DNA of 64,000 nucleotides. Source: Spironucleus salmonicida (lineage: Eukaryota). Shown piece by piece: positions 455 to 34,403 of the stretch. The stretch spans positions 434,001 through 498,000 of the forward strand of contig NC_090603.1 in the NCBI RefSeq assembly GCF_000497125.1, written 5' to 3'. A model generated the notes under the pieces. It saw only the letters and a list, made by a program, of their open reading frames with translations, made no database searches and was not told the origin of the DNA. Made by a program: the position numbers and the translations under genes. Positions within the stretch are counted from its first letter, which is position 1. Every line of letters starts with the position of its first letter.

Positions 455-1396
455 TTGAATTGTGGAAGGGAGTGCGCCAAAATAGAATATATGAATATAA
501 CTATATAATAATCGTAATATAGGTAAAATATATATAAAAACATAAATAAGTAAGAAATATAAATGTGACTGTCCTACTAAGTTGGCTCAGATGAAAATGT
601 TGTAAAACATAAACTTTAAAATCATATGTAATGTATTTACATAGCATAATTGATATGATTACTCTAATAAAATTATAAAAATTATTAACGGAATTGCTAG
701 AGTAAAATTTAATTTATTACCACATTATAATATGTTAAAGAAAAAATATCTTAATAATGATATTAGTTTATCTAGGTTAATGGATAAATAATTCTGATTC
801 GCTATAATTTAACTGAAGTTTTGGTGTTGCTTTTTCCAGCGCAATCCTATTTGGATCATTAAGTGGCAAAACTCACACAGTACATCAAATTAAGCTCAAA
901 CTACGGAAAGAAGGCTAGCAGGCCAAACTTCCCCTTTTTGCCAGTTCGCTAGCGCAGACTAATCTCTTGCGCTGCAACACGTTAAGAGCAGACCCACTCC
1001 GAACCTAGAATTCGCTCTAGCTGCTTCCCTATCTGCAGTGATCTGGAAGGCGCATCCACTTAGATCTCCTCTCTGCGCGGCACGGTGGTTCTGGCTGGAG
1101 TTCGGCAGTATTTTAGTACTGCTTCGCAGCGCACATTCAAGATGAGTCAAGCGAGCAGCCCGCATTGGGCCATCTTTGACGCTAAACTGCCGCTGTCGGT
1201 TTCCGCAGTCCCGCCGGCCTCGCATCCAGCACCATACCGTCCGGCTCGAAGCCGCTAGCCTCGTCGCGGTTATGAAGCCGAATACAATAAGATGCCTATC
1301 TAGCAAAAACAAAATTGTATACTTTCTAGCTGGAGTATACTCCCCTTAATAGTAGCCTATGCGGCCGCTGCTGCAAATCGAGGCGCCCCTCCACAA

Positions 1397-1825
1397 ATGA
1401 GCATGAAGCAGGCCATGATCCTGGAGTTCAACTTCTACAACAGCAGGAACGCGCTCATCTCCTACACCGCAAAGGCCGGCACCCCGGAGCTGACCCCGAT
1501 CGTCATCTTCAACGACGACGCCAGCACCCTGTACTTCAACTTCTCCACCAAGTCCCGCCACTACGCGGAGATCGCGAGCGCCGTGCACAAGCGCATCACG
1601 GTGGGCAACATCTACACCAACCGGCGCTCCACCTTCCAGTACGAGCTGGAGCTGCTGGATAGCAAGGCGCACGAGGACCTCTACGACCTCTGCTGGAGGG
1701 AGGAGGTCTTCGAGATGTTCGACGAGGACGAGTTCCGCGCCGACAGGGTGGTGTTCAGGATCGTCATCAAGTCCGCCCAGTTCATCGACGAGGACGACCA
1801 GATCCTGGAGGAAGTGAAGTTCTGA
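1397..1825 (+). CDS. Pyridoxamine 5'-phosphate oxidase-like FMN-binding split-barrel protein (142 aa)
   Basis: ATG-TGA ORF with strong GC3 bias. Motif TLYFNFSTKSRHYAEIAS and size fit the PNPOx/general-stress split-barrel fold. Confidence 0.6.
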   Translation: MSMKQAMILEFNFYNSRNALISYTAKAGTPELTPIVIFNDDASTLYFNFSTKSRHYAEIASAVHKRITVGNIYTNRRSTFQYELELLDSKAHEDLYDLCWREEVFEMFDEDEFRADRVVFRIVIKSAQFIDEDDQILEEVKF

Positions 1826-1828
1826 TTC

Positions 1829-2281
1829 TCACTCGCCGAGCCGCGTCTACTGGTTCTCCAGCTCCAGGATCTTGAAGAAGTCCAGCTCCGACAGCGAGAC
1901 GATGCACTGCTTGATGTTGTAGACCTGGCTGCTCTGCTTGATCTCCGCCACGGTGATCACCCGCTTGAGGTAGCGGACGAAGCGCACCACCAGCGCCTCC
2001 TTGGACGCGGACACCACCTCGCACAGGCACACCGCCCCGGCGTAGTGGGCGGGCTGCGTGTGGACCACCAGGCAGGTGTCGCCCCGCTTCATCTTCAGCG
2101 AGATCTGGCGGTCGGACGGCTTGGAGAGGAAGTCGATCTGGACCGCGTTCTGCTCCTTGGTCAGGCGCTCGATCTTCTGGGCCGAGAGGCGGTTGGCGTG
2201 CGTCTTGATGACGTAGAAGACCTGGTTGCACTGGTTCAGGATGATGTCCGTGTGCTGGGCCTGGTGGTCCATGTTTAGCAT
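1829..2281 (-). CDS. EVE (PUA-like, Thy28/THYN1-type) domain protein (150 aa)
   Basis: FYVIKT...MKRGDTCLVVHT...GAVCLCEVV...VRFVRYLKRVITVAEIK...IVSLSELDFFKIL matches EVE motifs. One in-frame TAG corresponds to CAG in the other arm. Confidence 0.7.
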
Positions 2282-2322
2282 TTTGGGAGCGGGAGTGAGT
2301 ATATATAATAGCAGCAAAGTCC

Positions 2323-3810
2323 TCAGTGCGCCTTTCTGCGGCTGGTGCGCTTGCGGTTCTTCATGGCCACGACAGCCTGGACGATGCCATGGATGGCGAA
2401 CGCCGTGCAGCACGCGACCCACGATGCCCCCACCGCCACTGCGGCTATCAACCCGTAGTTCACCGGCTGTGCCTTCACGTCGTCCAGGAACAGGAGGTAC
2501 GTGGCGCCATCCAGCACCATCGACAGGCCGTATCGGGCCGTATCGAAGAAGCCGTCGTAGCCAGTGAAGGAGACCTGCGTGGCCGAGCTGTCGCCGCTCG
2601 CCGTAATCGCAACCTTGTTGTGGTTTATAAGCGAGAACTCGGCCGGTCCGGCGCTGCACTTCCCGTTGAGGTACAGGGTCAGGTCGATGACGTTTTTCCT
2701 CCTGACCGCCGTCACCTTGGTCCAGCAGGTCGGGACCATCTGGGGGGTCTGCTTGTACATGGCCTTGAGCGTCTGGTCTGAGCCCACCGAGATGATGTCC
2801 AGGACGACGCGGTCGAACTGCTGGGAGAGCACGATGGCGCTGCAGATCGGGCGCAGCTTGATGATCTGGCTCGCGCAGGTAATCTGAAGCACCTGGTTGT
2901 TGACGAGCGGCGCGTTGTGGCTGCTGAGGAAGGAGTGCTGGGTGCCGTTCACGATGAAGGAGAGCTTGAAGGTCGTGTGGTCTCCCAATTTACTCGTGTA
3001 GTCATCATACTTATCCTAGTCAAACTGGAGCCTGAGATAAATGTCGTCGTTCTGGAGCGACATGAGGGCTACCTGGAAGAAGGCCACTACGGTCTCCAGG
3101 CGCGTAGACTCCACGTCGACCTGGAACTCGACCTTGGAGCCCACCTGGCTGGTCGTGAAGACGATGAAGGTGTTGAGGAACGGCTGCTGCTGCACGAACT
3201 CGAGCAGGTCATCCTTGAACATTATCTCCTGCTTCGCAACCATGTAGTCGAACCCCATATTCAGGTCCAGCTCCACCAAGGCGCCGCTGAGGCTCAGCTG
3301 GACCGCTTGCAGGAAGTTGTCGGGGCTAGCAGTCTTGAGCTACATCTGCGTCTTGCAGAGGCCAGTCGGAAAGAGCTCCACCTCGATCCGGTCCCGGAAG
3401 ACCTGGGCAACGGACCGCGGCTCGTAGCACGCCTGCAGGTTGGACTTCTGGAGCGAGAACTTGGGGATCAGCGTGGTGAGCACCTGCCCGAAGGTGTAGA
3501 TGTCGAGCTGCGCTGAGTACACCAGGCCAATCTTTTGGCCAGTCGGGAGCGCGGCGGCAAAGGTGATGTTGGTGATGTTCTGGTAGGAAAAGGAGGACAG
3601 CGTGGTGGTCACAATGGGGATCTTGATGCCCTCCAGGCTGTTGATCGTGAGGTTAACCTGGACCCCAGGCGGCATCTTGCCGCAGGCTTCCACGTTAAGG
3701 GGCTTCAGCTGAACCACCAGCTGGTTTATGTTTTCATCATAAATGATTAGTGAATTTTCATCAAAGCAGTTATCTAGAACTTGTTGAAATATTTAAAGTA
3801 CAATCAGCAT
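2323..3810 (-). CDS. Type I membrane/surface protein 'P' (495 aa), intact copy
   Basis: ATG 3810 MLIVLQIFQQVLDNCFDENS... joins three same-frame standard ORFs through TAG codons. C-terminal TM segment (LIAAVAVGASWVACCTAFAIHGIV) and basic tail. Confidence 0.85.
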
Positions 3811-4512
3811 TTTAATGAAAATTTGTTTTATTATATAATATACGATTAAGGAAAAATAATAAATCTATAATATTTATAAATAAAAATATATGAAAGAAAT
3901 TGATCTATGCTACAATTGATATGAAATATAACAAAATATATGCCATTAGAATTAGAATTTTAGAGAATCAGTTTTAAAATTTAGAACAAATAAATGTAAA
4001 TTGATATATTATAGCACATTATAAACTTCTAGTATCAGTTAATGGTTTACGAAATATAAATTCAGTTAAGATAATGAGATGAAATATTCATCATTCATAA
4101 AGTAAATGTATAGTGTATTATTTAAATGCTTATCGTATATTCAGATATTTTACTTTGTAAAAACGATGGTTCCAAATATCTAAATTTAGATTTATGCTAG
4201 ATTTTATTGTAAATAGAAACTAAATGAGCACATAAAAGTTAATTATATAAAATATTAATACTGTAATACGAAAAACTAAAATAAAAAATATATTTAGTTT
4301 TTGGTTAGGATGAATATATGAAATAGCTTCTTATTCTCATATAAATAAAATTTACGGTTTACCTTACTACATATTGCTTTTAATAAAACTTAATATTTTG
4401 AATACGTAATAAATCTTAATATAGAAATTAATCAAGTAAAAACTAATATATTCAGTTTATTAGTAGTTTAAAAATAAATATTGCATCACCTATTATCCGG
4501 TATTTTGCGAAA

Positions 4513-6072
4513 ATGATAAGTTTAGTTCTAGCGCTGACCTGCTTCGAGCAGACCGCCCAGGTGGTAGGGCAGGAGCAGCAGTCCACGGTCTAGCTGCTGC
4601 TGACGCCGCTGGAGTCCGCCCACGACCTCTGTAAGGCCTCCTCCGGTACCGAGTCGACCGCCCTCATTAAGTTTAACGCAAAACAAGTCGAGGCGACGTT
4701 CACCTACCAGGACGACAAGGCCATAGTAATCCCCTTCGACCTTTCTTCAGATACAGGAAACTTCAAGGAGATGTTCAATACCGACGTGATATCCTACCAG
4801 ATCAAGCTGGCTGGCTCGCTCAACGTCAACGGCTCCGTGCAGAAGGTGAACCTGGTCCGCCTCAACACCTCCGCCTGCTGGGACGACCTGAAGCTGGTGT
4901 ACTCCCGCACCGCTGGGGGCGAGTTCATCCAGATGACCGGCACCCCGCTCCTCTGCACGATCAGCACGCCCGCCATCACCTTCCGGTTCGTCTCGGGCGG
5001 CCGGCAGCGGTAGCTAGCTATCTCGGGAAGCACCGGAGGCGCAGAGTATTACAAGAAAGGGAGCGCCTTCGACTACAGCAAGATCAAGTTCTACAAGCAG
5101 GAGCTCTCCACTCTGACCGACGAGGCCGACAAGCAGACCATGCGCGACTTTTTCGACGAATTCGAGCAGAACCGCGACCTCCGGGTTCAGTTCGTCCTCA
5201 CCACCTCCGACTACCCCGTCCGCGCCATCATTGACGTCATAGAGAGCCAGAACACCGCCTGCATCACAAACTTGAAACCCCGGGTCTATATCGACTCACG
5301 CTACGTGAACATCGAGTTGGAGAACAAAAAGTACGCGGGGGAGTCGGAATGCGTCTCGAACGCGGTCTACTTCAGGCACCACGCGATAATTCGCTCAAAC
5401 AAAGGCACGTTCCATGCGGTCGTTTTCGAGCAGAATGTCACCGATTTCATCGCCCGCGGGGGCGTGGACATGCCGTTCGACCCCCTGATCCCGGATTTCC
5501 AGCAGATTTAGGAGGCGGAGGTGCGGTACTATCTGACATCGTACGACGAGAGCGGGAACATATTGCTCGAGACCAGCCACAGGGGCCCGATGTCGCTCAG
5601 CTGCATCGATTACTTCGCGGCCAGCGTCCGGTAGCAGCAGGGTGGCTGCGTCGCAGTGAGCTTTTACGGCACCGAGTCGTGCCTGGCGAGGACGGTCCAG
5701 GAAATGGACATTATTTTCGCGTCCTAAATCGACGGGTTCACTTCTAGGGTCACCTATTTTTCGTTTAAGCTCTCATTTACGCCGTCAACCACTATAACGG
5801 AGCTGTGCAGTGGGGAAAATACCAATATAATATACGGCACAGATGCCCCAGAAACCACGTTCTACCAGCGCCTGAAGGCGTACTCGCGGCTGATTCAGCG
5901 GGGACAGTAGCTCTACGTGGCGTTTTCCGGGGAGCAGGAGTTCTTCAACTGGGACCGCTGCAACCTGGACGTGAGCGACGCGCTCCTCTACCCGATTGTG
6001 GGGTCCTGCGTGCTCATCGCCATCCTGGTCGCGCTGATGACGGTGTGGCAGTCGCGGCAGCTGATTCAATGA
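4513..6072 (+). CDS. Type I membrane/surface protein 'Q', variant L (519 aa)
   Basis: MISLVLALTCFEQTAQ... short signal peptide, spaced Cys, C-terminal TM (LLYPIVGSCVLIAILVALMTVW). Continuous in code 6. Confidence 0.88.
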
Positions 6073-6117
6073 GGCTCAGAGTGATGTTTTGCGCACTTCC
6101 CGGAATTTCCGCTCACT

Positions 6118-6771
6118 TCAGGGCCGCATCCCGTAGACCGCGAAGTCCTACCTCGCGCCGCTTTCCGTCTCCTCCAGCACCAGGAGGTTGCACATCCGCA
6201 CTCGGTCCGCCCGGAGGCCGAGGCAGGCGCCCGCGAGCTTGGCGTCGAGGTCGCGGCGCCACTCTGCGTCCGGCTCTCCGAATATATCGTTGCTGCTCGC
6301 AGCCTGCACCAGGAACTCGCAGCCAAAGCGGAGCTGCAGCCGCCCCCCGTCGCGCTGGGCGCCTTGCATCAAGAGCAGGGCCTGGCCGGCGTCCGTATCG
6401 CACAGCAGCTGCACCACGCGCATCTCCGCGGGGAAGTCGTCTAGCAGCACCGCGGGCCCGCCGGTAAAGGACAGCTGGGCGCGGCGCTGGGGGACCCTCG
6501 TGGCGCTGACGGTGTGGCTGGCCCCTGCCGCCGTGAGGGTTATGGCGGCACCAGCATCCAGGGCATCGAGGCACTGCCGGGACGTCTCTGGGCCGAGGTC
6601 GCCAAGGCAGAGGTAGGCCGGGGAGGCGAGATGGCCCAGGGCCTGTGCGTGCTCCCCGCCGACGGAGACTGCGAAGCGAGGCCTCATAGCGTCCAGCTCA
6701 TCGGACTGGAGCAGCTGCAGCCGGTGGCCCTGGAGCTCCGCGGCTACCAGCATGAGCACCCCGAGTAGCAT
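6118..6771 (-). CDS. Hypothetical protein with predicted signal peptide (217 aa)
   Basis: MLLGVLMLVAAELQGHRL...GAR-TAG-DFAVYGMRP-TGA. ATG preceded by AAA; AGTGA directly follows the stop. Confidence 0.7.
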
Positions 6772-6936
6772 TTTGGAAGGAAGTGGTGTTGTGCGTGTCT
6801 GGGGAGAGCACAGCGCGTACTGCCTCCACTCCAGCAGTTCAGCCCAGGGGTGCCTGTAGTGTGAATCAGGCTCACTCCTACGAAACCCCCGGGCCCAGGC
6901 CCAACCAGCGGCACCTCCCCGCATCGCGGTCGGCAC

Positions 6937-8781
6937 TCACTGGAAGCGCGCAGCGTAGTGCCCCACCACCCGGTCTGACAGCTCGCGCACCACGCCGAGG
7001 GACCCGGTGCGGGAGATGGCGTCCACCGCCGCGCCGTCCACAGGCCGGTCGAACACGCCGAGCATCTGCCCGAAGACGCCCAGGTTTGCCGCGGCCTGCA
7101 GCTCCGGGTCCGCGGTGCGCACGGGCACCCCGGTGTTGGGCTGCACCGCGCGGTTGAGGGCAAAGGGGCCCGCGGAGAAGAGGCGCTGCACCTCGTCGCG
7201 GGCGTAGAAGCCCACCACACGCTCACACTGGAGCAGGGTGAAGGGCAGGTGGTGCTGGGCCTCCAGGGCGGCGAGGCGCGCGCACACCCCATTGGCCGCG
7301 AGCTGCATGGCCACGGCGCGGTACACCACGAAGAGGCGCGAGGGGACGCCCAGCTCAGCGGCGAGGGCCTCCTCTTCTGGGGACAGCACCGCGCCCGGAA
7401 TCGCGTGCGGGGCGTCGATGGCCCCATAGGTGCGCTCCCCGATGCCCCGCACAAGGTCTGCCAGCTCGTGGCTGCGGCCCGCCCGGTCCGTGATCTTCTT
7501 CGCGTAGTGGCTTTGCAGCCCGAGGCGCATGATCTCGGCCTTGATGAAGGTGTCCGCCGCCTCGTCGATGAATGGGTTATACACGTACAGCCCGCAGTGG
7601 GCCACATACTGCCGCACCGGGAAGAGGTCCGGGAGCGTGGCCGCCACCAGCTCCGCCTCGGCCCGGGAGAACCGGCGGGCGGAGTGCAAGCGCGTGTTCT
7701 GCGCGTTAAGGCGCCCGACCTCATAGTTTGCGACATTCACGGCGGCCTTGGAGCAAACCAGGGCCTGCCTGCCCAGACGGAGCGCGAAGGAGGCCACCGG
7801 CGCCAGCGCCTTCGGGGCGAGCACCCGGCCCGCACGCTAGGCCTGCAGCACCTGCCGCGTCGGGAGGCTTGCGAACTTGACATTGCGGAAGACGAAGCGC
7901 TGGCGCAGCGGGACCGTCTAGGGCGGGAGCGCATCGGCGACTAGGTCCGTCGCGGAGTAGTCCATGACGTCGGGGAGGTCGTTGAAGAAGGCCGCGTCGA
8001 GGAAGTACAGGAAGCTAACCACTCCCACGCCGTCCATGGTTAGCATTCGGTGGGTCTCAGGCCCGCGGGGCTTACGCGCCAGGACGGTGCGCGGCACCCA
8101 CTGATCGAAGGAGGCGGGGGAGCGCATGACGTGCAGCAGCATTGATGCGCCGGTGACCTCACGGACCACGGTTCGCGCCTTGTTCGCGTCCAGGGCGTCC
8201 GGCTGCGCGCGATTGCGGAGTCTGTTGCGCTGCACCGCATTCACGCCGGCGTCCGCAAAGGGGGCGGTGACCAAGAGGCGATCCGGGGCAGACCCTAGCT
8301 GCTGGAGCACTGGCGAGAAGGGGTCCTCTGCGCCCAGCTCGACCTCGAGGAAGGGAAACCGCGATGCGATTTGGGCCACCACGTCCCGCAAGAACGCCGG
8401 CATCTGCGCGGAGAGAGTGAAGCGGCGCAGCACAGGCACCTAGGCTAAGAGTGCGGTGTGGTGCCCCAGGAAGGTCGCCAGTGGCGCCGCCAGCAGGACA
8501 TCGAGCGCGGCGTTGGCGGGCCCCAGCCGCCCAAGCAGCAGCCGGTAGAATCGCAGTCCGAAGCGCTAGGTGCCAAAGACCTCCAGCGGCAGGAGCGGGA
8601 GAGTGCGCTGGTCCTCAGGCGCACCGATGCCCAGGAAGTGCTGAGAGCGCGCCGCGTAGAGAGAGGCGATGGCGGCGGCCTGCTCCGGCGTGCAGGGCAG
8701 GGAGGACAGCTCGGACGCTGCCAGCAGGGACAGCTGGGCGCGGAAGTGCTCTGCAGTGGGGAACCCGGTGAGGAGTACCAT
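6937..8781 (-). CDS. 614-aa protein with Ada2-like C-terminal half (SWIRM-like)
   Basis: Three standard ORFs joined through TAGs from ATG 8781 (MVLLTGFPT). RRFSRAEAELV...DTFIKAEIMRLGL...IPGAVLSPEEEALAAELGVPSRLFVVYRAV...CERVVGFY resembles the Ada2 C-terminus. Confidence 0.55.
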
Positions 8782-8875
8782 TTGGAGCGGAGGGTCGGAA
8801 GGGAGGCGTACTGGGCCGCGGGCGAGTGGGACGCCCTGGCCGCTCCAATTGGGGTTCCGCCCAGACCCGCTCCGA

Positions 8876-9120
8876 ATGTAGCAGCGCACCGCCCTAATAG
8901 TTTGCGCCGCCGTCCTGGCCGTTCTTCTGGCTGCCCGCCACTACGTCGCGCGGTACCTTCAGCACGCCACGCGCAGTGCGCCACCGCAACTCCAGCGCCT
9001 GGCCCGGGAGCACCCGACTGCGTCCCTGAGGGCACCGTGTTCGACCTCGCGCACCTGGATCGCCTCCGCCCTCGGGTCCTCCAGCAGTTCCGCGCCAGCG
9101 TCCACGCCAAGGAGGAGTGA
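8876..9120 (+). pseudogene. Frameshifted copy of the 81-aa membrane-anchored protein (or a sequencing error)
   Basis: GAGCACCCGAC here versus GAGCACCCCGAC in the right arm: 1-nt deletion at about 9013. Confidence 0.6.
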
Positions 9121-9499
9121 ATTACATTATTACATTGAGCTAGCTTTTTGATAATAGTTGTAAAACTAGAAAACTATTAAAATAATCTCAGTAAAATAAC
9201 ATTTCATAAAGCAATAACTCTTAATCCAAAAAAAACCAATTGCTAATAAATAAATTATGAGCATAAAGGTTATCTCTGTTAGTTGAATGACTGCTATATT
9301 ATCTTTGAGTCTTAAATATCACATAAATCAAATATAGTTTACTGATATAATAAACTGATGATGGCCGAGAAATGAAATTATTTATTCACGCTGTCTTTTA
9401 ACACATCTTAATATTAGTAAATACTTATTTTATAATTCAAAAAATAAACTTATAATTAACTAAATAATAATAAAATATTTTCTCTCCAAAATTTCTAAA

Positions 9500-11218: not shown

Positions 11219-11308
11219 CAGAGAGTGAAGTTATTGTTAGTTTCTTATGGTTTTATAGGATATTTGATTGTTTTTGTGAAATAACTTCAGTTTCAGTGGA
11301 GTTAGAAC

Positions 11309-11554
11309 TCACTCCTCCTTGGCATGGACGCTGGCGCGGAACTGCTGGAGGACCCGAGGGCGGAGGCGATCCAGGTGCGCGAGGTCGAACACGGTGCCCT
11401 CAGGGACGCAGTCGGGGTGCTCCCGGGCCAGGCGCTGGAGTTGCGGTGGCGCACTGCGCGTGGCGTGCTGAAGGTACCGCGCGACGTAGTGGCGGGCAGC
11501 CAGAAGAACGGCCAGGACGGCGGCGCAAACTATTAGGGCGGTGCGCTGCTACAT
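11309..11554 (-). CDS. Small N-terminally anchored membrane protein (81 aa), intact copy
   Basis: MQQRTALIVCAAVLAVLLAARHYV...REHPDCVPEGTVFDLAHLDRLRPRVLQQFRASVHAKEE, ending GAG-TGA. Confidence 0.7.
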
Positions 11555-11648
11555 TCGGAGCGGGTCTGGGCGGAACCCCAATTGGAGCGGCCAGGGCGTC
11601 CCACTCGCCCGCGGCCCAGTACGCCTCCCTTCCGACCCTCCGCTCCAA

Positions 11649-13493
11649 ATGGTACTCCTCACCGGGTTCCCCACTGCAGAGCACTTCCGCGCCCAGCTGT
11701 CCCTGCTGGCAGCGTCCGAGCTGTCCTCCCTGCCCTGCACGCCGGAGCAGGCCGCCGCCATCGCCTCTCTCTACGCGGCGCGCTCTCAGCACTTCCTGGG
11801 CATCGGCGCGCCTGAGGACCAGCGCACTCTCCCGCTCCTGCCGCTGGAGGTCTTTGGCACCTAGCGCTTCGGACTGCGATTCTACCGGCTGCTGCTTGGG
11901 CGGCTGGGGCCCGCCAACGCCGCGCTCGATGTCCTGCTGGCGGCGCCACTGGCGACCTTCCTGGGGCACCACACCGCACTCTTAGCCTAGGTGCCTGTGC
12001 TGCGCCGCTTCACTCTCTCCGCGCAGATGCCGGCGTTCTTGCGGGACGTGGTGGCCCAAATCGCATCGCGGTTTCCCTTCCTCGAGGTCGAGCTGGGCGC
12101 AGAGGACCCCTTCTCGCCAGTGCTCCAGCAGCTAGGGTCTGCCCCGGATCGCCTCTTGGTCACCGCCCCCTTTGCGGACGCCGGCGTGAATGCGGTGCAG
12201 CGCAACAGACTCCGCAATCGCGCGCAGCCGGACGCCCTGGACGCGAACAAGGCGCGAACCGTGGTCCGTGAGGTCACCGGCGCATCAATGCTGCTGCACG
12301 TCATGCGCTCCCCCGCCTCCTTCGATCAGTGGGTGCCGCGCACCGTCCTGGCGCGTAAGCCCCGCGGGCCTGAGACCCACCGAATGCTAACCATGGACGG
12401 CGTGGGAGTGGTTAGCTTCCTGTACTTCCTCGACGCGGCCTTCTTCAACGACCTCCCCGACGTCATGGACTACTCCGCGACGGACCTAGTCGCCGATGCG
12501 CTCCCGCCCTAGACGGTCCCGCTGCGCCAGCGCTTCGTCTTCCGCAATGTCAAGTTCGCAAGCCTCCCGACGCGGCAGGTGCTGCAGGCCTAGCGTGCGG
12601 GCCGGGTGCTCGCCCCGAAGGCGCTGGCGCCGGTGGCCTCCTTCGCGCTCCGTCTGGGCAGGCAGGCCCTGGTTTGCTCCAAGGCCGCCGTGAATGTCGC
12701 AAACTATGAGGTCGGGCGCCTTAACGCGCAGAACACGCGCTTGCACTCCGCCCGCCGGTTCTCCCGGGCCGAGGCGGAGCTGGTGGCGGCCACGCTCCCG
12801 GACCTCTTCCCGGTGCGGCAGTATGTGGCCCACTGCGGGCTGTACGTGTATAACCCATTCATCGACGAGGCGGCGGACACCTTCATCAAGGCCGAGATCA
12901 TGCGCCTCGGGCTGCAAAGCCACTACGCGAAGAAGATCACGGACCGGGCGGGCCGCAGCCACGAGCTGGCAGACCTTGTGCGGGGCATCGGGGAGCGCAC
13001 CTATGGGGCCATCGACGCCCCGCACGCGATTCCGGGCGCGGTGCTGTCCCCAGAAGAGGAGGCCCTCGCCGCTGAGCTGGGCGTCCCCTCGCGCCTCTTC
13101 GTGGTGTACCGCGCCGTGGCCATGCAGCTCGCGGCCAATGGGGTGTGCGCGCGCCTCGCCGCCCTGGAGGCCCAGCACCACCTGCCCTTCACCCTGCTCC
13201 AGTGTGAGCGTGTGGTGGGCTTCTACGCCCGCGACGAGGTGCAGCGCCTCTTCTCCGCGGGCCCCTTTGCCCTCAACCGCGCGGTGCAGCCCAACACCGG
13301 GGTGCCCGTGCGCACCGCGGACCCGGAGCTGCAGGCCGCGGCAAACCTGGGCGTCTTCGGGCAGATGCTCGGCGTGTTCGACCGGCCTGTGGACGGCGCG
13401 GCGGCGGACGCCATCTCCCGCACCGGGTCCCTCGGCGTGGTGCGCGAGCTGTCAGACCGGGTGGTGGGGCACTACGCTGCGCGCTTCCAGTGA
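11649..13493 (+). CDS. Ada2-like protein, right-arm copy
   Basis: Mirror of 6937-8781; one V/A difference seen. Confidence 0.55.
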
Positions 13494-13658
13494 GTGCCGA
13501 CCGCGATGCGGGGAGGTGCCGCTGGTTGGGCCTGGGCCCGGGGGTTTCGTAGGAGTGAGCCTGATTCACACTACAGGCACCCCTGGGCTGAACTGCTGGA
13601 GTGGAGGCAGTACGCGCTGTGCTCTCCCCAGACACGCACAACACCACTTCCTTCCAAA

Positions 13659-14312
13659 ATGCTACTCGGGGTGCTCATGCTGGTAGCCGCGGAGCTCCAG
13701 GGCCACCGGCTGCAGCTGCTCCAGTCCGATGAGCTGGACGCTATGAGGCCTCCCTTCGCAGTCTCCGTCGGCGGGGAGCACGCACAGGCCCTGGGCCATC
13801 TCGCCTCCCCGGCCTACCTCTGCCTTGGCGACCTCGGCCCAGAGACGTCCCGGCAGTGCCTCGATGCCCTGGATGCTGGTGCCGCCATAACCCTCACGGC
13901 GGCAGGGGCCAGCCACACCGTCAGCGCCACGAGGGTCCCCCAGCGCCGCGCCCAGCTGTCCTTTACCGGCGGGCCCGCGGTGCTGCTAGACGACTTCCCC
14001 GCGGAGATGCGCGTGGTGCAGCTGCTGTGCGATACGGACGCCGGCCAGGCCCTGCTCTTGATGCAAGGCGCCCAGCGCGACGGGGGGCGGCTGCAGCTCC
14101 GCTTTGGCTGCGAGTTCCTGGTGCAGGCTGCGAGCAGCAACGATATATTCGGAGAGCCGGACGCAGAGTGGCGCCGCGACCTCGACGCCAAGCTCGCGGG
14201 CGCCTGCCTCGGCCTCCGGGCGGACCGAGTGCGGATGTGCAACCTCCTGGTGCTGGAGGAGACGGAAAGCGGCGCGAGGTAGGACTTCGCGGTCTACGGG
14301 ATGCGGCCCTGA
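13659..14312 (+). CDS. Hypothetical signal-peptide protein, right-arm copy
   Basis: Mirror of 6118-6771; one R/P difference seen. Confidence 0.7.
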
Positions 14313-14357
14313 AGTGAGCGGAAATTCCGGGAAGTGCGCAAAACATCACTCTGAGCC

Positions 14358-15917
14358 TCATTGAATCAGCTGCCGCGACTGCCACACCGTCATCAGCGCG
14401 ACCAGGATGGCGATGAGCACGCAGGACCCCACAATCGGGTAGAGGAGCGCGTCGCTCACGTCCAGGTTGCAGCGGTCCCAGTTGAAGAACTCCTGCTCCC
14501 CGGAAAACGCCACGTAGAGCTACTGTCCCCGCTGAATCAGCCGCGAGTACGCCTTCAGGCGCTGGTAGAACGTAATAATAGAAGATTCTTAGCCATATAT
14601 TACGTTTGTTGTATCGGTGCTACATTTCTCTATAATAGCTCCGGACGGTATAAAGGATAGGTGAAATGAGAAATATGTAACTCTAGAAAGAAATCCATCT
14701 ACTTGAGAAGTAAACACTAAATCCATTTCTTGTATCCCACGGGATAGACACTATTCCGTAGCATAAAAATTCATAGCTACACATCCTCCATATATTTAAC
14801 TTACACGTGTTGTAAAATAGTCTATACAACTTAGTTATAATTAACCTCGATAACTTGTTTCTAACAATATTTCTCCATTTTAATCGTAGGCGGTTAAATA
14901 ATATCTTAACTCAGCATTGTCTATATCTTGAAATCCCGGTACTATTGGTTCAAATGGCATATCTACCCCACCACGAGCATTAAAGTCGTCATATGACTAT
15001 TTTAAAACTTCTGCATGGAAAACTCCATTATTTGTGTTAACGATAGCATGCTATCTAAAAGAAACCGCGTTATTTATGCATGTTGGTTCTGTTGAATATT
15101 TCTTATTATCAAGACCGATGTCTACATACCTAGATGTCAAAAATCCTGATGCTTTTAAATTAATCAAACATTATGTATTGTTGCTCTCTATGACGTCAAT
15201 GATGGCGCGGACGGGGTAGTCGGAGGTGGTGAGGACGAACTGAACCCGGAGGTCGCGGTTCTGCTCGAATTCGTCGAAAAAGTCGCGCATGGTCTGCTTG
15301 TCGGCCTCGTCGGTCAGAGTGGAGAGCTCCTGCTTGTAGAACTTGATCTTGCTGTAGTCGAAGGCGCTCCCTTTCTTGTAATACTCTGCGCCTCCGGTGC
15401 TTCCCGAGATAGCTAGCTACCGCTGCCGGCCGCCCGAGACGAACCGGAAGGTGATGGCGGGCGTGCTGATCGTGCAGAGGAGCGGGGTGCCGGTCATCTG
15501 GATGAACTCGCCCCCAGCGGTGCGGGAGTACACCAGCTTCAGGTCGTCCCAGCAGGCGGAGGTGTTGAGGCGGACCAGGTTCACCTTCTGCACGGAGCCG
15601 TTGACGTTGAGCGAGCCAGCCAGCTTGATCTGGTAGGATATCACGTCGGTATTGAACATCTCCTTGAAGTTTCCTGTATCTGAAGAAAGGTCGAAGGGGA
15701 TTACTATGGCCTTGTCGTCCTGGTAGGTGAACGTCGCCTCGACTTGTTTTGTGCTAAACTTAATGAAGGCGGTCGACTCGGTGCCGGAGGAGGCCTTACA
15801 GAGGTCGTGGGCGGACTCCAGCGGCGTCAGCAGCAGCTAGACCGTGGACTGCTGCTCCTGCCCTACCACCTGGGCGGTCTGCTCGAAGCAGGTCAGCGCT
15901 AGAACTAAACTTATCAT
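14358..15917 (-). CDS. Type I membrane/surface protein 'Q', variant R (519 aa)
   Basis: Same length as variant L with near-identical ends. Internal 14574-15182 is AT-rich and diverged but collinear and open (NNTQCLINLKASGFLTSRYVDIGLDNKKY...ARGGVDMPFEPIV). Confidence 0.88.
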
Positions 15918-16553
15918 TTTCTGATATATCTACGATATTTTAATTATTAAATATACTTAAGTTATAATAAGTAAAATCATATTTTATTACTGTTTATAGT
16001 ATTATTCTAAAACATAGTATACATTTTTCATAAACGGGTATATGAATATATTAATAATTATTAAACTACTTTAATAATATTATTTTTATTTATAGGATAT
16101 ATAAGATTTTATAATGAATTTTACAACTTTTCTCTAATATTATATTTATCTATTTGTATAACTCGTCTTTAGATTTAGTTGTATTCTAACTAATTCTATA
16201 GTTTTAAATGAAATAATAAAAGTTTATCTATTTATATGATAATAAATTTTGAGTATTAAAAATCTGAATATACTATACTTTCATATTAAATTTATTAAAA
16301 TTTGTATTAAATTTAAAAATAATGGAACACTTTATTGAAAACATGCAACTATTAGCAAATATATATAATTTTAACTATATTTATAAGAATGTACTTTAAT
16401 TATCGTATGTCAGATAATAAATAAATAAAAATATTAAAAAATAATTTATACAAATATTTTATAATATTATGTTTAGAATATTTGATAAGCATGGTAATCA
16501 ACTATTTTCATATTATTTATTATAATTTTTATATAAATATACTAATAATATTA

Positions 16554-18032
16554 ATGTTGATTGTCTTTCCAGTAGTTCTTGATAATTATTATGGTAAAAA
16601 TTGAATTACAGTGTATACTGAGTACATAAACCAGCTGGTGGTTCAGCTGAAGCCCCTTAACGTGGAAGCCTGCGGCAAGATGCCGCCTGGGGTCCAGGTG
16701 AACCTCACGATCAACAGCCTGGAGGGCATCAAGATCCCCATTGTGACCACCACGCTGTCCTCCTTTTCCTACCAGAACATCACCAACATCACCTTTGCCG
16801 CCGCGCTCCCGACTGGCCAAAAGATTGGCCTGGTGTACTCAGCGCAGCTCGACATCTACACCTTCGGGCAGGTGCTCACCACGCTGATCCCCAAGTTCTC
16901 GCTCCAGAAGTCCAACCTGCAGGCGTGCTACGAGCCGCGGTCCGTTGCCCAGGTCTTCCGGAACCGTATCGAGGTGGAGCTCTTTCCGACTGGCCTCTGC
17001 AAGACGCAGATGTAACTCAAGGCGGCCAGCCCCGACAACTTCCTGCAAGCGGTCCAGCTGAGCCTCAGCGGCGCCTTGGTGGAGCTGGACCTGAATATGG
17101 GGTTCGACTACATGGTTGCGAAGCAGGAGATAATGTTCAAGGATGACCTGCTCGAGTTCGTGCAGCAGCAGCCGTTCCTCAACGCCTTCATCGTCTTCAC
17201 GACCAGCCAGGTGGGCTCCAAGGTCGAGTTCCAGGTCGACGTGGAGTCTACGCGCCTGGAGACCGTAGTGGCCTTCTTCCAGGTAACCCTCATGTCACTC
17301 CAGAACGACGACATTTATCTCAGGCTCCAGTTTGACTAGGATAAGTATGATGACTACGAGAAGGTCTTGGGAGACCACACGACCTTCAAGCTCTCCTTCA
17401 TCGTGAACGGCACCCAGCACTCCTTCCTCAGCAGCCACAACGCGCCGCTCGTCAACAACCAGGTGCTGCAGATTACCTGCGCGAGCCAGATCATCAAGCT
17501 GCGCCCGATCTGCAGCGCCATCGTGCTCTCCCAGCAGTTCGACCGCGTCGTCCTGGACATCATCTCGGTGGGCCCAGACCAGACGCTCAAGTCCATGTAC
17601 AAGCAGATGCCCCAGATGGTCCCCACCTGCTGGACCAAGGTGACGGCGGTCAGGAGGAAAAACGTCATCGACCTGACCCTGTACCTCAACGGGAAGTGCA
17701 GCGCCGGACCGGCCGAGTTCTCGCTTATAAACCACAATGCAGCCGCGATTACGGCGAGCAGCGACAGCTCGGCCACGCAGGTCTCCTTCACTGGCTACGA
17801 CGGCTTCTTCGATACGGCCCGATACGGCCTGTCGATGGTGCTGGATGGCGCCACGTACCTCCTGTTCCTGGACGACGTGAAGGCACAGCCGGTGAACTAC
17901 GGGACGATAGCCGCAGTGGCGGTGGGGGCATCGTGGGTCGCGTGCTGCACGGCGTTCGCCATCTATGGCATCGTCCAGGCTGTCGTGGCCATGAAGAACC
18001 GCAAGCGCACCAGCCGCAGAAAGGCGCACTGA
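16554..18032 (+). pseudogene. Membrane protein 'P', right-arm copy with degenerate 5' end and in-frame TGA
   Basis: MLIVFPVVLDNYYGKN*ITVYTEYINQ versus MLIVLQIFQQVLDNCFDENSLIIYDENINQ. TGA at 16602-16604 aligns with TCA (Ser); the remainder is near-identical to the left copy. Confidence 0.7.
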
Positions 18033-18073
18033 GGACTTTGCTGCTATTATATATACTCACTCCCGCTCCCAAA

Positions 18074-18526
18074 ATGCTAAACATGGACCACCAGGCCCAG
18101 CACACGGACATCATCCTGAACCAGTGCAACCAGGTCTTCTACGTCATCAAGACGCACGCCAACCGCCTCTCGGCCCAGAAGATCGAGCGCCTGACCAAGG
18201 AGCAGAACGCGGTCCAGATCGACTTCCTCTCCAAGCCGTCCGACCGCCAGATCTCGCTGAAGATGAAGCGGGGCGACACCTGCCTGGTGGTCCACACGCA
18301 GCCCGCCCACTACGCCGGGGCGGTGTGCCTGTGCGAGGTGGTGTCCGCGTCCAAGGAGGCGCTGGTGGTGCGCTTCGTCCGCTACCTCAAGCGGGTGATC
18401 ACCGTGGCGGAGATCAAGCAGAGCAGCCAGGTCTACAACATCAAGCAGTGCATCGTCTCGCTGTCGGAGCTGGACTTCTTCAAGATCCTGGAGCTGGAGA
18501 ACCAGCAGACGCGGCTCGGCGAGTGA
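18074..18526 (+). CDS. EVE domain protein, right-arm copy
   Basis: Mirror of 1829-2281; ends ENQQTRLGE-TGA. Confidence 0.7.
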   Translation: MLNMDHQAQHTDIILNQCNQVFYVIKTHANRLSAQKIERLTKEQNAVQIDFLSKPSDRQISLKMKRGDTCLVVHTQPAHYAGAVCLCEVVSASKEALVVRFVRYLKRVITVAEIKQSSQVYNIKQCIVSLSELDFFKILELENQQTRLGE

Positions 18527-18529
18527 GAA

Positions 18530-18958
18530 TCAGAACTTCACTTCCTCCAGGATCTGGTCGTCCTCGTCGATGAACTGGGCGGTCTTGATGACGATCCTGA
18601 ACACCACCCTGTCGGCGCGGAACTCGTCCTCGTCGAACATCTCGAAGACCTCCTCCCTCCAGCAGAGGTCGTAGAGGGCCTCGTGCGCCTTGCTGTCCAG
18701 CAGCTCCAGCTCGTACTGGAAGGTGGAGCGCCGGTTGGTGTAGATGTTGCCCACCGTGATGCGCTTGTGCACGGCGCTCGCGATCTCCGCGTAGTGGCGG
18801 GACTTGGTGGAGAAGTTGAAGTACAGGGTGCTGGCGTCGTCGTTGAAGATGACGATCGGGGTCAGCTCCGGGGTGCCGGCCTTTGCGGTGTAGGAGATGA
18901 GCGCGTTCCTGCTGTTGTAGAAGTTGAACTCCAGGATCATGGCCTGCTTCATGCTCAT
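18530..18958 (-). CDS. PNPOx-like split-barrel protein, right-arm copy
   Basis: Mirror of 1397-1825 with two amino-acid differences (D/A, S/T). Confidence 0.6.
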   Translation of the reverse strand: MSMKQAMILEFNFYNSRNALISYTAKAGTPELTPIVIFNDDASTLYFNFSTKSRHYAEIASAVHKRITVGNIYTNRRSTFQYELELLDSKAHEALYDLCWREEVFEMFDEDEFRADRVVFRIVIKTAQFIDEDDQILEEVKF

Positions 18959-19888
18959 TTGTGGAGGGGCGCCTCGATTTGCAGCAGCGGCCGCATAGGC
19001 TACTATTAAGGGGAGTATACTCCAGCTAGAAAGTATACAATTTTGTTTTTGCTAGATAGGCATCTTATTGTATTCGGCTTCATAACCGCGACGAGGCTAG
19101 CGGCTTCGAGCCGGACGGTATGGTGCTGGATGCGAGGCCGGCGGGACTGCGGAAACCGACAGCGGCAGTTTAGCGTCAAAGATGGCCCAATGCGGGCTGC
19201 TCGCTTGACTCATCTTGAATGTGCGCTGCGAAGCAGTACTAAAATACTGCCGAACTCCAGCCAGAACCACCGTACCGCGCAGAGAGGAGATCTAAGTGGA
19301 TGCGCCTTCCAGATCACTGCAGATAGGGAAGCAGCTAGAGCGAATTCTAGGTTCGGAGTGGGCCTGCTGCTAAACGTGTTGCAGCGCAAGAGATTAGTCT
19401 GCGCTAGCGAACTGGCAAAAAGGGGAAGTTTGGCCTGCTAGCCTTCTTTCCGTAGTTTGACCTTAATTTGATGTACTGTGTGAGTTTTACCACTTAATGA
19501 TCCAAATAGGATTGCGCTGGAAAAAAAACAATATCTAACATGAATCCGCTGTAAATAAAAGTTAACAAAATCAAATTATGAAATAATTTACGCTTTGTTA
19601 TTACTTAAAGACAACTCAATTATAATATAATATAAATAATATAAACTTTATTCTAGTTTTACAAAAAATTTATCCTGATCGAAACTACTAAAAATTGAGG
19701 TTTACAATTTATTTAAGTTAAGAGCAAATGAATTCTCTGGATGCATAATGGATATGCAAAGTAAGATGCTTAAATTCTTGATTGATGATTGTTTATAGAC
19801 CAATTTTTACTTTATGAGTAAATGTTAAAGACAGAATAGAATGAACAATAATGATTACATTTTATAATTGAAATTTTAAAATAAACTC

Positions 19889-20545
19889 TCATCTCTCAGC
19901 TTCGTCATCTGCGCAGTCAAAGCTGACCTTTGTCTCGCTAATCTCAGTCTCACGCTCCCTGCGCTGCCGCTCGCGCCGGAGGTCCATCTTGCGCAGCGCA
20001 CTCTTCTGCTGCTGCTTGAGCTAAGCCATCTTGGCCTCAAGCGTGCCGGCGGCGATGTCGATGCAGATGTTGCGGGCGGGCTTGAGGACGGACTTGCTGA
20101 GCAGGTCCTTCTCCATCGCGAGGCTGGCGGTGGGGCCCACGCGGACGTCGGGCCGGAAGCGGGCGAAGTTGGTGACGATGAAGCGCACGAAGAAGGGGCC
20201 GTCGAGGGAGAAGAACTCGCGCGTCATGTCCCCAAAGGCGCGCAGGTCCTTGATGCGCTCCAGCTTGCTCTCGGGCTCGGCGAAGAGGTAGCGCTGCGTG
20301 AAGAGGTCCAGGTGGAAGGCGTCTTCCGGCTGCCGAGTCGGGGCGCGCACCTGCTCCTGGGACGCGTTGGGGAGCGCTCTCCGGGGCTGCAGCGCGGGCA
20401 GCGCCTGGAGCGAGAAGGACTGCGCGGTCTGGATCATGCGCTGCTGCTGCATCACGCGGTGGGGCGAGCGGAAGCGCTGCGGGCTCAGGGCTGGCAGCGC
20501 GGGGGCCTGCAGCTCGACGGAGCGCGCGAGGGGCGAGGACTTCAT
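19889..20545 (-). CDS. Hypothetical protein (218 aa), intact copy
   Basis: MKSSPLARS...EAKMA-TAG-LKQQQKSALRKMD...DDEAER-TGA. Confidence 0.8.
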
Positions 20546-34186: not shown

Positions 34187-34403
34187 TCTGCGCTCCGAGA
34201 CTTATCGCGATTCGGATATTGGGGCAGTCCCGAATACCTCACTGTAGACGTTGCGAGCATCGCTCCCATTGCTCGTGCCGCTCCAGAATGACCACCGCGC
34301 CGGACTGCCTCCAGGTTCCCGGCTGCGGATACTGCGAGCCCGGCAACGCCCTCGCCTGCCAGGGTTGCCTCGCGCCCTTCGTCTTCCTTGACGGCGTATG
34401 CTA
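33643..34403. repeat. Direct repeat copy 2 (761 bp)
   Basis: Matches 20002-20762. Confidence 0.95.

What the first reader, a model, noticed from the sequence alone, without database searches (positions are those of the whole stretch)
831..19525. 18.7-kb gene-bearing palindrome that is a mosaic of homogenised and diverged blocks
Seen: two ~8.3-kb inverted arms, each with 7 genes, around a 2.2-kb single-gene spacer. Three tracts are near-identical. The innermost (5857-9120) shows about 5 differences by eye and the outermost (831-3731) clearly more. Two collinear islands between them are strongly diverged. Inference: the duplication is old, as the islands show, and is being kept identical by arm-to-arm gene conversion that weakens away from the spacer, as in Y-chromosome palindromes.
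Basis: partly seen in the sequence, partly recalled or inferred. Interest (0 to 1): 0.85.

Follow-up and report, generated by a model that had tools for sequence, protein, structure and literature searches.

The report
Gene-bearing mosaic palindrome in Spironucleus salmonicida
A real 18.7-kb inverted duplication in the fish parasite Spironucleus salmonicida has arms that are mostly kept alike by copying between them, and the copied parts are strikingly GC-rich, which bears on an old puzzle about this genome's patchy base composition.

Summary
The palindrome is real: arm A 831-9123, arm B 11306-19525, spacer 9124-11305. The DNA is Spironucleus salmonicida nuclear sequence, read with TAA/TAG as glutamine. 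Each arm holds six clear ORFs, not seven.

Three tracts, 83% of arm A, differ by 0.18% (inner), 0.94% (middle) and 1.48% (outer).

- **Island 2** (5256-5856) is codons 248-448 of a 519-aa membrane-protein gene. It has 264 of 601 differences and no gap. GC3 is 0.77 in arm A and 0.21 in arm B. Arm B's gene is therefore a three-part compositional chimera.
- **Island 1** is the shared promoter plus the first ~28 codons of the neighbouring gene. Its intergenic part shows no detectable homology.

The island-2 split is as deep as the split from a third paralog.

Exchanged tracts are GC-rich (49-70% even where non-coding). Unexchanged sequence is 14-33% GC, except arm A's island 2.

Divergence is lowest beside the spacer but does not rise steadily outward.

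Segmental arm-to-arm gene conversion, probably GC-biased, fits best. Whether the islands are old remnants or later imports stays open. This is a new member of a known kind, of moderate interest.

The parts
831..9123 (.). Palindrome arm A (8293 bp)
   Evidence: sharp ends seen
11306..19525 (.). Palindrome arm B (8220 bp), reverse complement of arm A
9124..11305 (.). Unique spacer, 2182 bp, GC 0.286
9500..11218 (+). Spacer gene: 572-aa Q-rich coiled-coil-like ORF with 62 in-frame TAA/TAG codons; no Pfam match
   Evidence: single copy in the window
831..3731 (.). Outer near-identical tract (partner 16624-19525): 43 differences in 2901 bp, clustered; GC 0.58
3732..4508 (.). Island 1, arm A (partner 15922-16623): diverged first ~28 codons of gene 3 plus the gene 3/gene 4 divergent intergenic region; GC 0.196 against 0.152 in arm B
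4509..5255 (.). Middle near-identical tract (partner 15175-15921): 7 differences in 747 bp; starts 4 bp before the ATG of gene 4
5256..5856 (+). Island 2, arm A: codons 248-448 of gene 4, GC 0.547, GC3 0.77
14574..15174 (-). Island 2, arm B: the same codons of the arm-B gene 4, GC 0.326, GC3 0.21; 264 of 601 positions differ from arm A, with no gap
5857..9123 (.). Inner near-identical tract (partner 11306-14573): 6 differences in 3267 bp; GC 0.686
1142..1825 (+). Gene 1, 227-aa ORF (arm B copy 18530-19213, minus strand); GC3 0.79; 3 differences between arms; start codon uncertain
1829..2281 (-). Gene 2, 150 aa (arm B copy 18074-18526, plus strand); GC3 0.99; weak EVE-domain similarity below the Pfam cut-off (21 against 23 bits)
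2323..3810 (-). Gene 3, 495-aa protein with a C-terminal hydrophobic anchor (read by eye). In arm B the ATG at 16554 is followed by an in-frame TGA at 16602-16604, and the next ATG-started ORF is 16680-18032. 33 nucleotide differences in the homogenised part (12 synonymous, 21 non-synonymous)
4513..6072 (+). Gene 4 arm A, 519-aa membrane protein (N-terminal and C-terminal hydrophobic segments read by eye; the paralog is named 'Transmembrane protein' by UniRef); family of 19 cluster representatives
14358..15917 (-). Gene 4 arm B, 519-aa intact ORF; three-part compositional chimera (GC3 0.85 / 0.21 / 0.92)
6118..6924 (-). Gene 5, 268 aa (arm B copy 13506-14312, plus strand); 1 difference between arms; no family match
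6937..8781 (-). Gene 6, 614 aa (arm B copy 11649-13493, plus strand); 2 differences between arms; annotated protein P0004; no other homolog found

Best explanation
This is an inverted segmental duplication (a palindrome with a 2.2-kb unique spacer) on a Spironucleus salmonicida chromosome. Each arm carries six genes.

The two arms exchange sequence by non-reciprocal recombination, that is, intrachromosomal arm-to-arm gene conversion. This happens in discrete tracts of roughly 0.75 to 3.3 kb, and at least three tracts of different ages now cover 83% of arm A.

Two segments have stayed outside the exchange for a long time: the shared promoter of genes 3 and 4 with the first ~28 codons of gene 3, and codons 248-448 of gene 4. 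Their split is about as old as the split of this gene pair from a third paralog on a contig of the same length. Once sequence is that diverged, heterology (and perhaps selection for two ectodomain isoforms) blocks conversion, so tract ends are sharp.

Exchange is accompanied by strong enrichment of G and C in coding and non-coding sequence alike. GC-biased repair of heteroduplex is the most likely cause. The palindrome is thus a local example of the genome-wide rule that duplicated regions of this species are GC-rich.

What is shown:
- the anatomy of the palindrome
- the chimeric gene in arm B
- the depth of the island split
- the match between exchanged tracts and high GC

What is inferred:
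- that exchange is ongoing
- that it is GC-biased
- that the islands are remnants rather than imports
For: 1. Palindrome and tracts.
2. Chimera: gene 4 of arm B has GC3 0.85 in codons 1-247 (7 nucleotide differences from arm A), 0.21 in codons 248-448 (264 differences, split 68/37/159 by codon position, no indel) and 0.92 in codons 449-519 (0 differences). In 20-codon bins this is a step function.
3. Old split under purifying selection: dN is 0.32 with synonymous sites saturated. All six island cysteines are invariant among arm A, arm B and P0002.
4. Protein identity in the island is A-B 59.1%, A-P0002 57.6% and B-P0002 62.6%. In the two flanks A-B is 98.8% and 100%.
5. In the maximum-likelihood tree of the island, arm A, arm B and P0002 are unresolved. 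The N-flank tree gives (A,B) with support 96/99 (7 of the 15 rows of A3 were used).
6. Island 1 is AT-rich in both arms (0.196 and 0.152). Its intergenic part has no detectable homology and its coding edge is diverged.
7. GC follows exchange rather than coding. Homogenised non-coding 831-1141 is 0.49 and 8782-9123 is 0.70. Unexchanged intergenic sequence is 0.19 and 0.14, spacer non-coding sequence 0.215, and the flanks 0.31 and 0.23. GC drops within about 100 bp at all four arm ends.
8. The only other repeat in the window, 20002-20762 = 33643-34403 at 99.6%, has GC 0.67.
9. Literature:
   - Duplicated regions make up 19.2% of this genome and have 44.7% GC against 30.7% for the rest (PMC9509377, section 21 read).
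   - High-GC3 genes were called hard to explain (PMC1805757, passages) and recent relative to S. barkhanus (PMC2874811, passages).
10. No B-type donor was found among annotated proteins of 285-909 aa.
Against: 1. Arm A's island 2 is GC-rich (GC3 0.77) although it has no exchange partner in the window. Under pure arm-to-arm GC-biased conversion both island copies should be AT-rich, as in island 1. This needs another copy elsewhere, an earlier partner, or a different GC driver.
2. The bias itself is not demonstrated. The 70 substitutions in the near-identical tracts cannot be polarised without an outgroup. They are symmetric between arms (arm A weak/arm B strong 32, arm A strong/arm B weak 27).
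3. Recombination between sequences about 57% identical is not expected. The order in which tracts became homogenised while the islands escaped is therefore inferred.
4. Both island-2 junctions fall in motifs conserved across the family. This would also suit a segmental import.
5. The arm A copy of gene 4 is itself absent from the protein collection, so 'no donor found' is weak evidence.
6. No reads were available, so over-polishing of the 3.2-kb near-perfect tract cannot be excluded.
Confidence: 0.5

Rival explanations
1. Younger or fully homogenised palindrome with a later import. Both arms were once alike and GC-rich throughout gene 4. Arm B's segment from gene 3 codon ~28 to gene 4 codon 448 was then overwritten by segmental conversion or template switching from a diverged, AT-rich member of the same gene family. 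Codons 1-247 of gene 4 were afterwards re-homogenised from arm A.
For: - It explains why arm A's island 2 is GC-rich (GC3 0.77, slightly below its flanks at 0.85 and 0.92): it had a partner until the import.
- Arm B's island has the background composition (GC3 0.21; weakly expressed genes have GC3s around 20%, PMC1805757 passages).
- Arm B's island has the shortest branch (0.18 against 0.45 for arm A).
- Both junctions lie in family-conserved motifs.
- The family has 19 cluster representatives.
- Arm B's gene 3 carries an in-frame TGA, as a copied pseudogene end might.
Against: - No donor was found. With arm B's island as query, the only hits were B itself and P0002 at 63%, and there are no further paralogs in the window.
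- Arm A's island 1 is very AT-rich (0.19), whereas other homogenised non-coding sequence is 0.49-0.70. This argues that island 1 was never part of the exchange.
- It needs recombination between sequences about 57% identical, plus a second event.
Confidence: 0.3
2. Assembly or polishing artefact. The inverted copy, or the near-identity of the tracts, was produced by chimeric long reads, collapse, or cross-mapping during polishing.
For: The inner tract has only 6 differences in 3267 bp. The genome paper checked read pile-ups only at the two largest duplications (PMC9509377, section 21).
Against: - A unique 2.2-kb gene-bearing spacer, 56 scattered differences across the three tracts as defined, and two islands with in-frame, codon-periodic divergence are not what missed-adapter or fold-back chimeras give.
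- The 614-aa protein cluster holds 2 member sequences on 1 contig.
- Arm B's chimeric gene 4 is an annotated protein (P0001).
Confidence: 0.05
3. The GC-rich arms are foreign DNA (lateral transfer or an integrated element) that was duplicated on arrival. Their composition reflects the donor, not conversion.
For: Genes 5 and 6 are about 69% GC and have no homolog outside this genome. The arms are 58-69% GC against 31-35% around them.
Against: - All six genes use in-frame TAA/TAG as sense codons.
- Gene 4 belongs to a family whose other members have AT-type amino-acid make-up.
- Arm B's gene 4 switches composition inside one ORF.
- Earlier work judged lateral transfer unlikely for high-GC3 genes (PMC1805757 passages).
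Confidence: 0.03
4. Island 2 of arm B is a hypermutated copy (RIP-like or deaminase-type C-to-T change) of the arm A sequence.
For: GC-to-AT changes dominate from arm A to arm B (174 of 264).
Against: - 62 of those 174 are transversions (C>A 41, G>T 21), and 90 of the 264 differences are not GC-to-AT changes at all.
- Changes are 3-periodic (68/37/159).
- The protein is as far from arm A as an old paralog is, the ORF is intact, and all cysteines are kept.
Confidence: 0.01

Closest known systems
Duplicated GC-rich regions of the S. salmonicida reference genome (Xu et al. 2022, PMC9509377)
   Same: Same organism. The tracts meet that paper's definition (at least 2 kb at 95% or more). GC is elevated as reported there (44.7% against 30.7%). 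The paper suggests gene conversion for cysteine-rich protein regions.
   Different: The paper has no occurrence of 'palindrom' or 'inverted'. It does not describe arm-spacer-arm structures, mosaics, or a within-gene composition step. GC here is far above the reported mean (58-69%).
Primate sex-chromosome palindromes (Y-chromosome P1-P8, recalled; X palindromes, PMC8981503; Y palindrome P6, PMC3723533, search listing only)
   Same: Inverted arms around a unique spacer; gene-bearing; arm-to-arm gene conversion; arms more GC-rich than flanks.
   Different: - The arms here are only 8.3 kb.
- Identity is patchy (0.18-2.4% divergence) and interrupted by islands of saturated divergence.
- The GC excess is about 27-38 points, against about 5 points (46% against 41%) in primate X palindromes.
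- Concerted evolution has not been shown here by a between-species comparison.
Identical inverted VSP gene pairs of Giardia (G. muris: seven pairs, head-to-head or tail-to-tail, with intervening genes; PMC7641422 passages)
   Same: Diplomonad; inverted identical copies of membrane-protein genes with other coding sequence between them; recombination or segmental conversion proposed.
   Different: - Six genes per arm rather than one.
- The genes are not VSPs: no Pfam match and, by eye, no CXXC-rich repeats.
- The pair here is only partly identical.
Segmental (mosaic) gene conversion in surface-protein families (trypanosome VSG, Giardia VSP arrays; recalled, and the discussion passage of PMC7641422)
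   Same: An internal block of an ectodomain differs between copies, while the N-terminus and the membrane anchor are shared. The junctions lie in conserved motifs.
   Different: No evidence here of switching, of silent donor arrays or of expression control. The family is small (19 cluster representatives).

Membership tests
Palindrome maintained by arm-to-arm gene conversion (sex-chromosome type) | Two inverted arms flanking a unique spacer | tested here: met
   arms of 8293 and 8220 bp, spacer of 2182 bp, sharp ends.
Palindrome maintained by arm-to-arm gene conversion (sex-chromosome type) | Concerted evolution: the arms are closer to each other than to orthologous arms in a related lineage | not testable with these tools
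   No Spironucleus genome collection was available. The internal proxy is that the flanks are 99-100% identical in protein while the island between them is 59%.
Palindrome maintained by arm-to-arm gene conversion (sex-chromosome type) | Arms more GC-rich than flanking single-copy sequence | tested here: met
   exchanged tracts are 0.58-0.69 GC against flanks at 0.31 and spacer at 0.286; this also holds for non-coding sequence.
Palindrome maintained by arm-to-arm gene conversion (sex-chromosome type) | Outgroup-polarised replacements biased from AT to GC | not testable with these tools
   No outgroup DNA. Unpolarised differences are symmetric between arms (32 against 27).
S. salmonicida 'duplicated regions' (PMC9509377) | Self-match of at least 2000 bp at 95% identity or more | tested here: met
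   982-3789 at 98% and 5857-9015 at 100%.
S. salmonicida 'duplicated regions' (PMC9509377) | GC above the genome background | tested here: met
Giardia-type VSP inverted pairs | The paired genes are VSPs (cysteine-rich CXXC ectodomain, conserved tail) | tested here: not met
   No Pfam family for gene 3 or gene 4. The profile of the gene 4 family finds nothing in PDB. Absence of CXXC repeats was judged by eye from the translation.
RIP-like repeat hypermutation | Differences are almost only C-to-T and G-to-A transitions | tested here: not met
   112 of 264 are such transitions; the other 152 are of other kinds, and the pattern is codon-periodic.

The most novel reading that the evidence does not exclude
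The palindrome shows, within one locus, the process that builds the unexplained GC-rich blocks of the S. salmonicida genome. That process would be very strong GC-biased gene conversion between repeats, in a lineage with no observed sex. It would push third positions to 0.8-0.99 GC and raise even non-coding sequence to 0.5-0.7 GC. It would also spread the GC-rich version directionally into AT-rich paralogs, leaving arm B's island 2 as the last unconverted remnant.
Probability: 0.3. Interest if true: 0.7.

Novelty: new member of a known kind. Interest (0 to 1): 0.5.

Why it matters
The patchy GC content of S. salmonicida, and its genes with GC3 near 1, were described in 2007 as hard to explain by mutation bias or by selection (PMC1805757, passages). 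In 2010 they were described as recent relative to S. barkhanus (PMC2874811, passages). In 2022 duplicated regions were found to be GC-rich (PMC9509377, section 21).

This locus gives an internal control that genome-wide averages cannot give. The same gene, at the same position, under the same purifying selection, has GC3 0.77-0.92 where it belongs to the GC-rich lineage or to the exchanged tracts, and 0.21 in arm B's unexchanged block.

If the bias is confirmed, it would show unusually strong GC-biased conversion acting between repeats in a diplomonad. It would also give a simple marker (steps in GC3) for mapping conversion tracts across the genome. The unexplained GC-rich island in arm A sets a concrete test between 'exchange drives GC' and other drivers.

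Tried and rejected
- **RNA genes.** Rfam and tRNA scans of the whole window found nothing, so this is not an rDNA- or tRNA-type palindrome.
- **Table 11 reading.** It breaks every gene and was replaced by table 6.
- **Gene function.**
  - Pfam gave nothing for genes 1 and 3-6 (the only matches, for gene 3, had E-values of 0.025-0.1).
  - Gene 2 gave only a sub-threshold EVE match.
  - PDB sequence and profile searches gave nothing for the gene 4 family or gene 6, and only a chance-level match (E = 0.82) for gene 2.
  - Gene 3 and gene 4 are not detectably related.
- **Structure prediction.** It was not accepted on two tries. Whether island 2 is a discrete domain is therefore unknown.
- **The protein-atlas search.** It does not take proteins read under another genetic code.
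- **The listing of cluster members.** It was switched off. Which ORFs of the arms are annotated, and under which accessions, stayed unchecked apart from P0001 and P0004.
- **Donor search for arm B's island**. Only B itself and P0002 were found. Shorter or unannotated donors, and the rest of the genome's DNA, could not be searched.
- **Rejected readings.** RIP-like hypermutation and foreign origin were rejected.
- **Monotonic gradient from the spacer.** Rejected.
- **Literature.**
  - No paper holds both 'GC-biased gene conversion' and 'Spironucleus'.
  - None of the ten papers listed for Spironucleus, 'palindrom' or 'inverted duplication' contains 'Spironucleus'.
  - The 2014 genome paper has no occurrence of 'gene conversion' or 'palindrom'.
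  - No supplements were opened; tables of duplicated regions there might list this locus.


Full report
**1. Observation**

The palindrome exists as described. Five collinear inverted-repeat pairs merge into one blastn alignment. It covers 831-9123 against 19525-11306, 92.2% identity over 8324 columns, E = 0. Arms are 8293 and 8220 bp and the spacer 9124-11305 is 2182 bp. The ends are sharp to the base on all four sides.

A global alignment gives three near-identical tracts:

| Tract (arm A) | Differences | Length (bp) |
|---|---|---|
| Inner, 5857-9123 | 6 | 3267 |
| Middle, 4509-5255 | 7 | 747 |
| Outer, 831-3731 | 43 | 2901 |

Two diverged islands lie at 3732-4508 and 5256-5856. Together the tracts cover 6915 of 8293 bp (83%) of arm A.

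**2. Organism and genetic code**

Under table 11 every gene is broken. Under table 6 the window fills with long ORFs. These include a 2381-aa kinase, HSP70, SRP54, a protein disulfide isomerase-like protein and a Sec1-family protein. All carry in-frame TAA/TAG and end in TGA.

A paralog of the palindrome's gene 4 is named by NCBI 'hypothetical protein SS50377_27933 [Spironucleus salmonicida]' (P0002). It lies on a contig of 1,071,966 bp. That is the same length as the contig carrying the window's own 614-aa protein (P0004).

[quoted passage not shown] No tRNA or Rfam family is present in the window.

**3. Anatomy**

Six ORFs per arm have coding-type codon composition, with GC3 0.79-0.99:
- Gene 1: 1142-1825, plus strand.
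- Gene 2: 1829-2281, minus strand. It has a weak, sub-threshold EVE-domain match.
- Gene 3: 2323-3810, minus strand.
- Gene 4: 4513-6072, plus strand.
- Gene 5: 6118-6924, minus strand.
- Gene 6: 6937-8781, minus strand.

Genes 3 and 4 are divergently transcribed. By eye, both are membrane proteins with a C-terminal hydrophobic anchor. They are not detectably related to each other.

831-1141 and 8782-9123 lack codon periodicity, and each carries a 1-bp indel between the arms.

The spacer holds one AT-rich coiled-coil-like ORF, 9500-11218. None of the genes has a Pfam match above cut-off or a PDB relative. No further paralogs lie in the window.

**4. Island 2**

Island 2 is codons 248-448 of gene 4. 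The two copies align without a single gap. They differ at 264 of 601 positions, split 68/37/159 by codon position. dN is 0.32, synonymous sites are saturated, both ORFs are intact, and all six island cysteines are invariant among arm A, arm B and P0002.

GC3 is 0.77 in arm A and 0.21 in arm B, while both flanks have 0.85 and 0.92 in both arms. In 20-codon bins, arm B's gene shows a clean step down and a clean step up, exactly at the identity boundaries. Arm B's gene 4 is therefore a three-part chimera of a GC-rich and an AT-rich lineage. This is direct evidence of non-reciprocal exchange.

The substitution spectrum rules out RIP-like hypermutation. Only 112 of the 264 differences are C>T or G>A, and transversions are abundant.

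**5. Island 1**

The intergenic part of island 1 (about 700 bp in arm A and 640 bp in arm B, GC 0.19 and 0.14) aligns no better than dinucleotide shuffles (z = -0.4, 200 shuffles). Its edge, 3732-3812, is the first ~28 codons of gene 3. This edge is AT-rich and diverged in both arms but recognisably homologous.

In arm B the ATG at 16554 is followed by an in-frame TGA at 16602-16604. Arm B's gene 3 has therefore either lost its N-terminus or starts at the next ATG, 16680.

**6. Age**

In the island, protein identity is A-B 59.1%, A-P0002 57.6% and B-P0002 62.6%. In the two flanks A-B is 98.8% and 100%, and either arm is 49-57% identical to P0002.

Maximum-likelihood trees used 7 of the 15 aligned family members. 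The other eight, more distant, were left out.
- Island tree: arm A, arm B and P0002 are unresolved. A+P0002 has support 60/68. A+B is not rejected (p-AU 0.32), nor is B+P0002 (p-AU 0.09).
- N-flank tree: (A,B) with support 96/99.
- Island branch lengths: arm B 0.18, P0002 0.35, arm A 0.45.

Arm B's island has the shortest branch and arm A's the longest. This fits composition-driven acceleration in the GC-rich lineage.

**7. Composition**

Exchanged tracts are 0.58-0.69 GC. The flanks are 0.31, the spacer 0.286 and the rest of the window 0.345.

The link is with exchange, not with coding. Homogenised non-coding sequence is 0.49 (831-1141) and 0.70 (8782-9123). Unexchanged intergenic sequence is 0.14-0.22. 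The only other repeat in the window, 20002-20762 = 33643-34403 (99.6%, direct), is 0.67 GC.

This matches the published genome-wide figure: duplicated regions 44.7% against 30.7% (PMC9509377, section 21). It also matches the pattern in primate X palindromes, though it is far stronger here (46% against 41% there; PMC8981503, passages).

The exception is arm A's island 2. It is GC-rich without a partner in the window.

**8. Gradient**

| Region (arm A) | Differences / bp | Divergence |
|---|---|---|
| 5857-9123, beside the spacer | 6 / 3267 | 0.18% |
| 4509-5255 | 7 / 747 | 0.94% |
| 2331-3731 | 33 / 1401 | 2.36% |
| 831-2330, outermost | 10 / 1500 | 0.67% |

The two halves of the outer tract differ with Fisher p = 1.7e-4. 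The inner tract against the whole outer tract gives p = 2.9e-9.

Differences are strongly clustered (squared coefficient of variation of the gaps = 5.2, measured over 831-3789). Examples are 6 of 7 bases at 2611-2617 and 7 of 9 at 2989-2997. Gene 3 carries 12 synonymous and 21 non-synonymous differences.

Divergence thus peaks around genes 3 and 4 and their promoter, and it falls off on both sides. The inner tract is the most recently homogenised. A steady decline of conversion with distance from the spacer is not what the data show.

**9. Mechanism and rivals**

- **Best reading (0.5).** An old inverted duplication whose arms exchange sequence in discrete tracts, with GC-biased repair. The islands are unconverted remnants, protected by heterology and perhaps by selection for two ectodomain isoforms.
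- **Main rival (0.3).** A homogenised palindrome in which arm B's gene 3-gene 4 region was later overwritten from a diverged AT-rich family member and then partly re-homogenised.
  - This explains arm A's GC-rich island.
  - It lacks a donor. That is weak evidence, because arm A's own copy is missing from the collection.
  - It conflicts with arm A's very AT-rich island 1.
- **Artefact (0.05), foreign origin (0.03) and hypermutation (0.01)** are unlikely, for the reasons given under each rival.

**10. What is known**

- The 2022 genome paper reports GC-rich duplications and suggests gene conversion near cysteine-rich protein genes. It has no occurrence of 'palindrom' or 'inverted'.
- The 2014 paper mentions neither 'gene conversion' nor 'palindrom'.
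- No paper in the library combines 'Spironucleus' with 'GC-biased gene conversion'.
- G. muris has seven identical inverted VSP pairs with intervening genes (PMC7641422, passages).

This locus is therefore a new, unusually informative member of known kinds: palindromes with arm-to-arm conversion, and the GC-rich duplicated regions of this genome.

**11. Left unchecked**

- Read support.
- The rest of the genome's DNA.
- Sister-species loci.
- The papers' supplements (not opened).

Noticed in passing
window 20002-20762 and 33643-34403: A second duplicate: a direct repeat of 761 bp at 99.6% identity, 13.6 kb apart, GC 0.67. The first copy lies only 477 bp outside the palindrome's outer edge. No family match for the ORFs in it.
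   Followed up: partly
window 16554-16604 (arm B, 5' end of gene 3): In-frame TGA 16 codons after the ATG of arm B's gene 3; arm A's copy is open. Arm B's gene 3 may be truncated at its N-terminus or be a pseudogene.
   Followed up: partly
window 42509-44800 (minus strand): A 763-aa ORF whose 3' end is GC-rich (0.73 at 42600-42800) while the rest is 0.21-0.34. This is another within-gene composition switch, with no partner in the window.
   Followed up: no
window 11050-11200: The last ~60 codons of the AT-rich spacer gene are GC 0.46-0.54 and glycine/arginine-rich, just outside arm B. This might be a former piece of the arm; no similarity to arm A's side was seen.
   Followed up: partly
window 51479-52585 (minus strand): A 368-aa cysteine-rich ORF with a C-terminal hydrophobic segment, sitting in a GC-rich block (0.56-0.61). 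By eye it resembles the cysteine-rich membrane proteins described for this species. No Pfam match.
   Followed up: no
whole window: GC swings between about 0.2 and 0.7 on a kilobase scale, also in segments with no repeat inside the window (23.4-26.2 kb, 41.4-42.8 kb, 47.6-49.2 kb, 55-55.6 kb). Whether these have copies elsewhere in the genome could not be checked.
   Followed up: no
window 4513-6072: Arm A's intact 519-aa copy of gene 4 is absent from the protein collection. Arm B's copy is present only as a 379-aa form starting at Met141 (P0001). The public annotation of this gene pair looks incomplete.
   Followed up: partly
window 2611-2617, 2989-2997, 3328-3340, 4647-4678: Tight clusters of differences between the arms inside otherwise near-identical tracts (6 of 7 bases, 7 of 9 bases, and so on). 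They change 2-3 adjacent codons in the two membrane-protein genes. They could be micro-patches of old divergence or complex mutations.
   Followed up: partly
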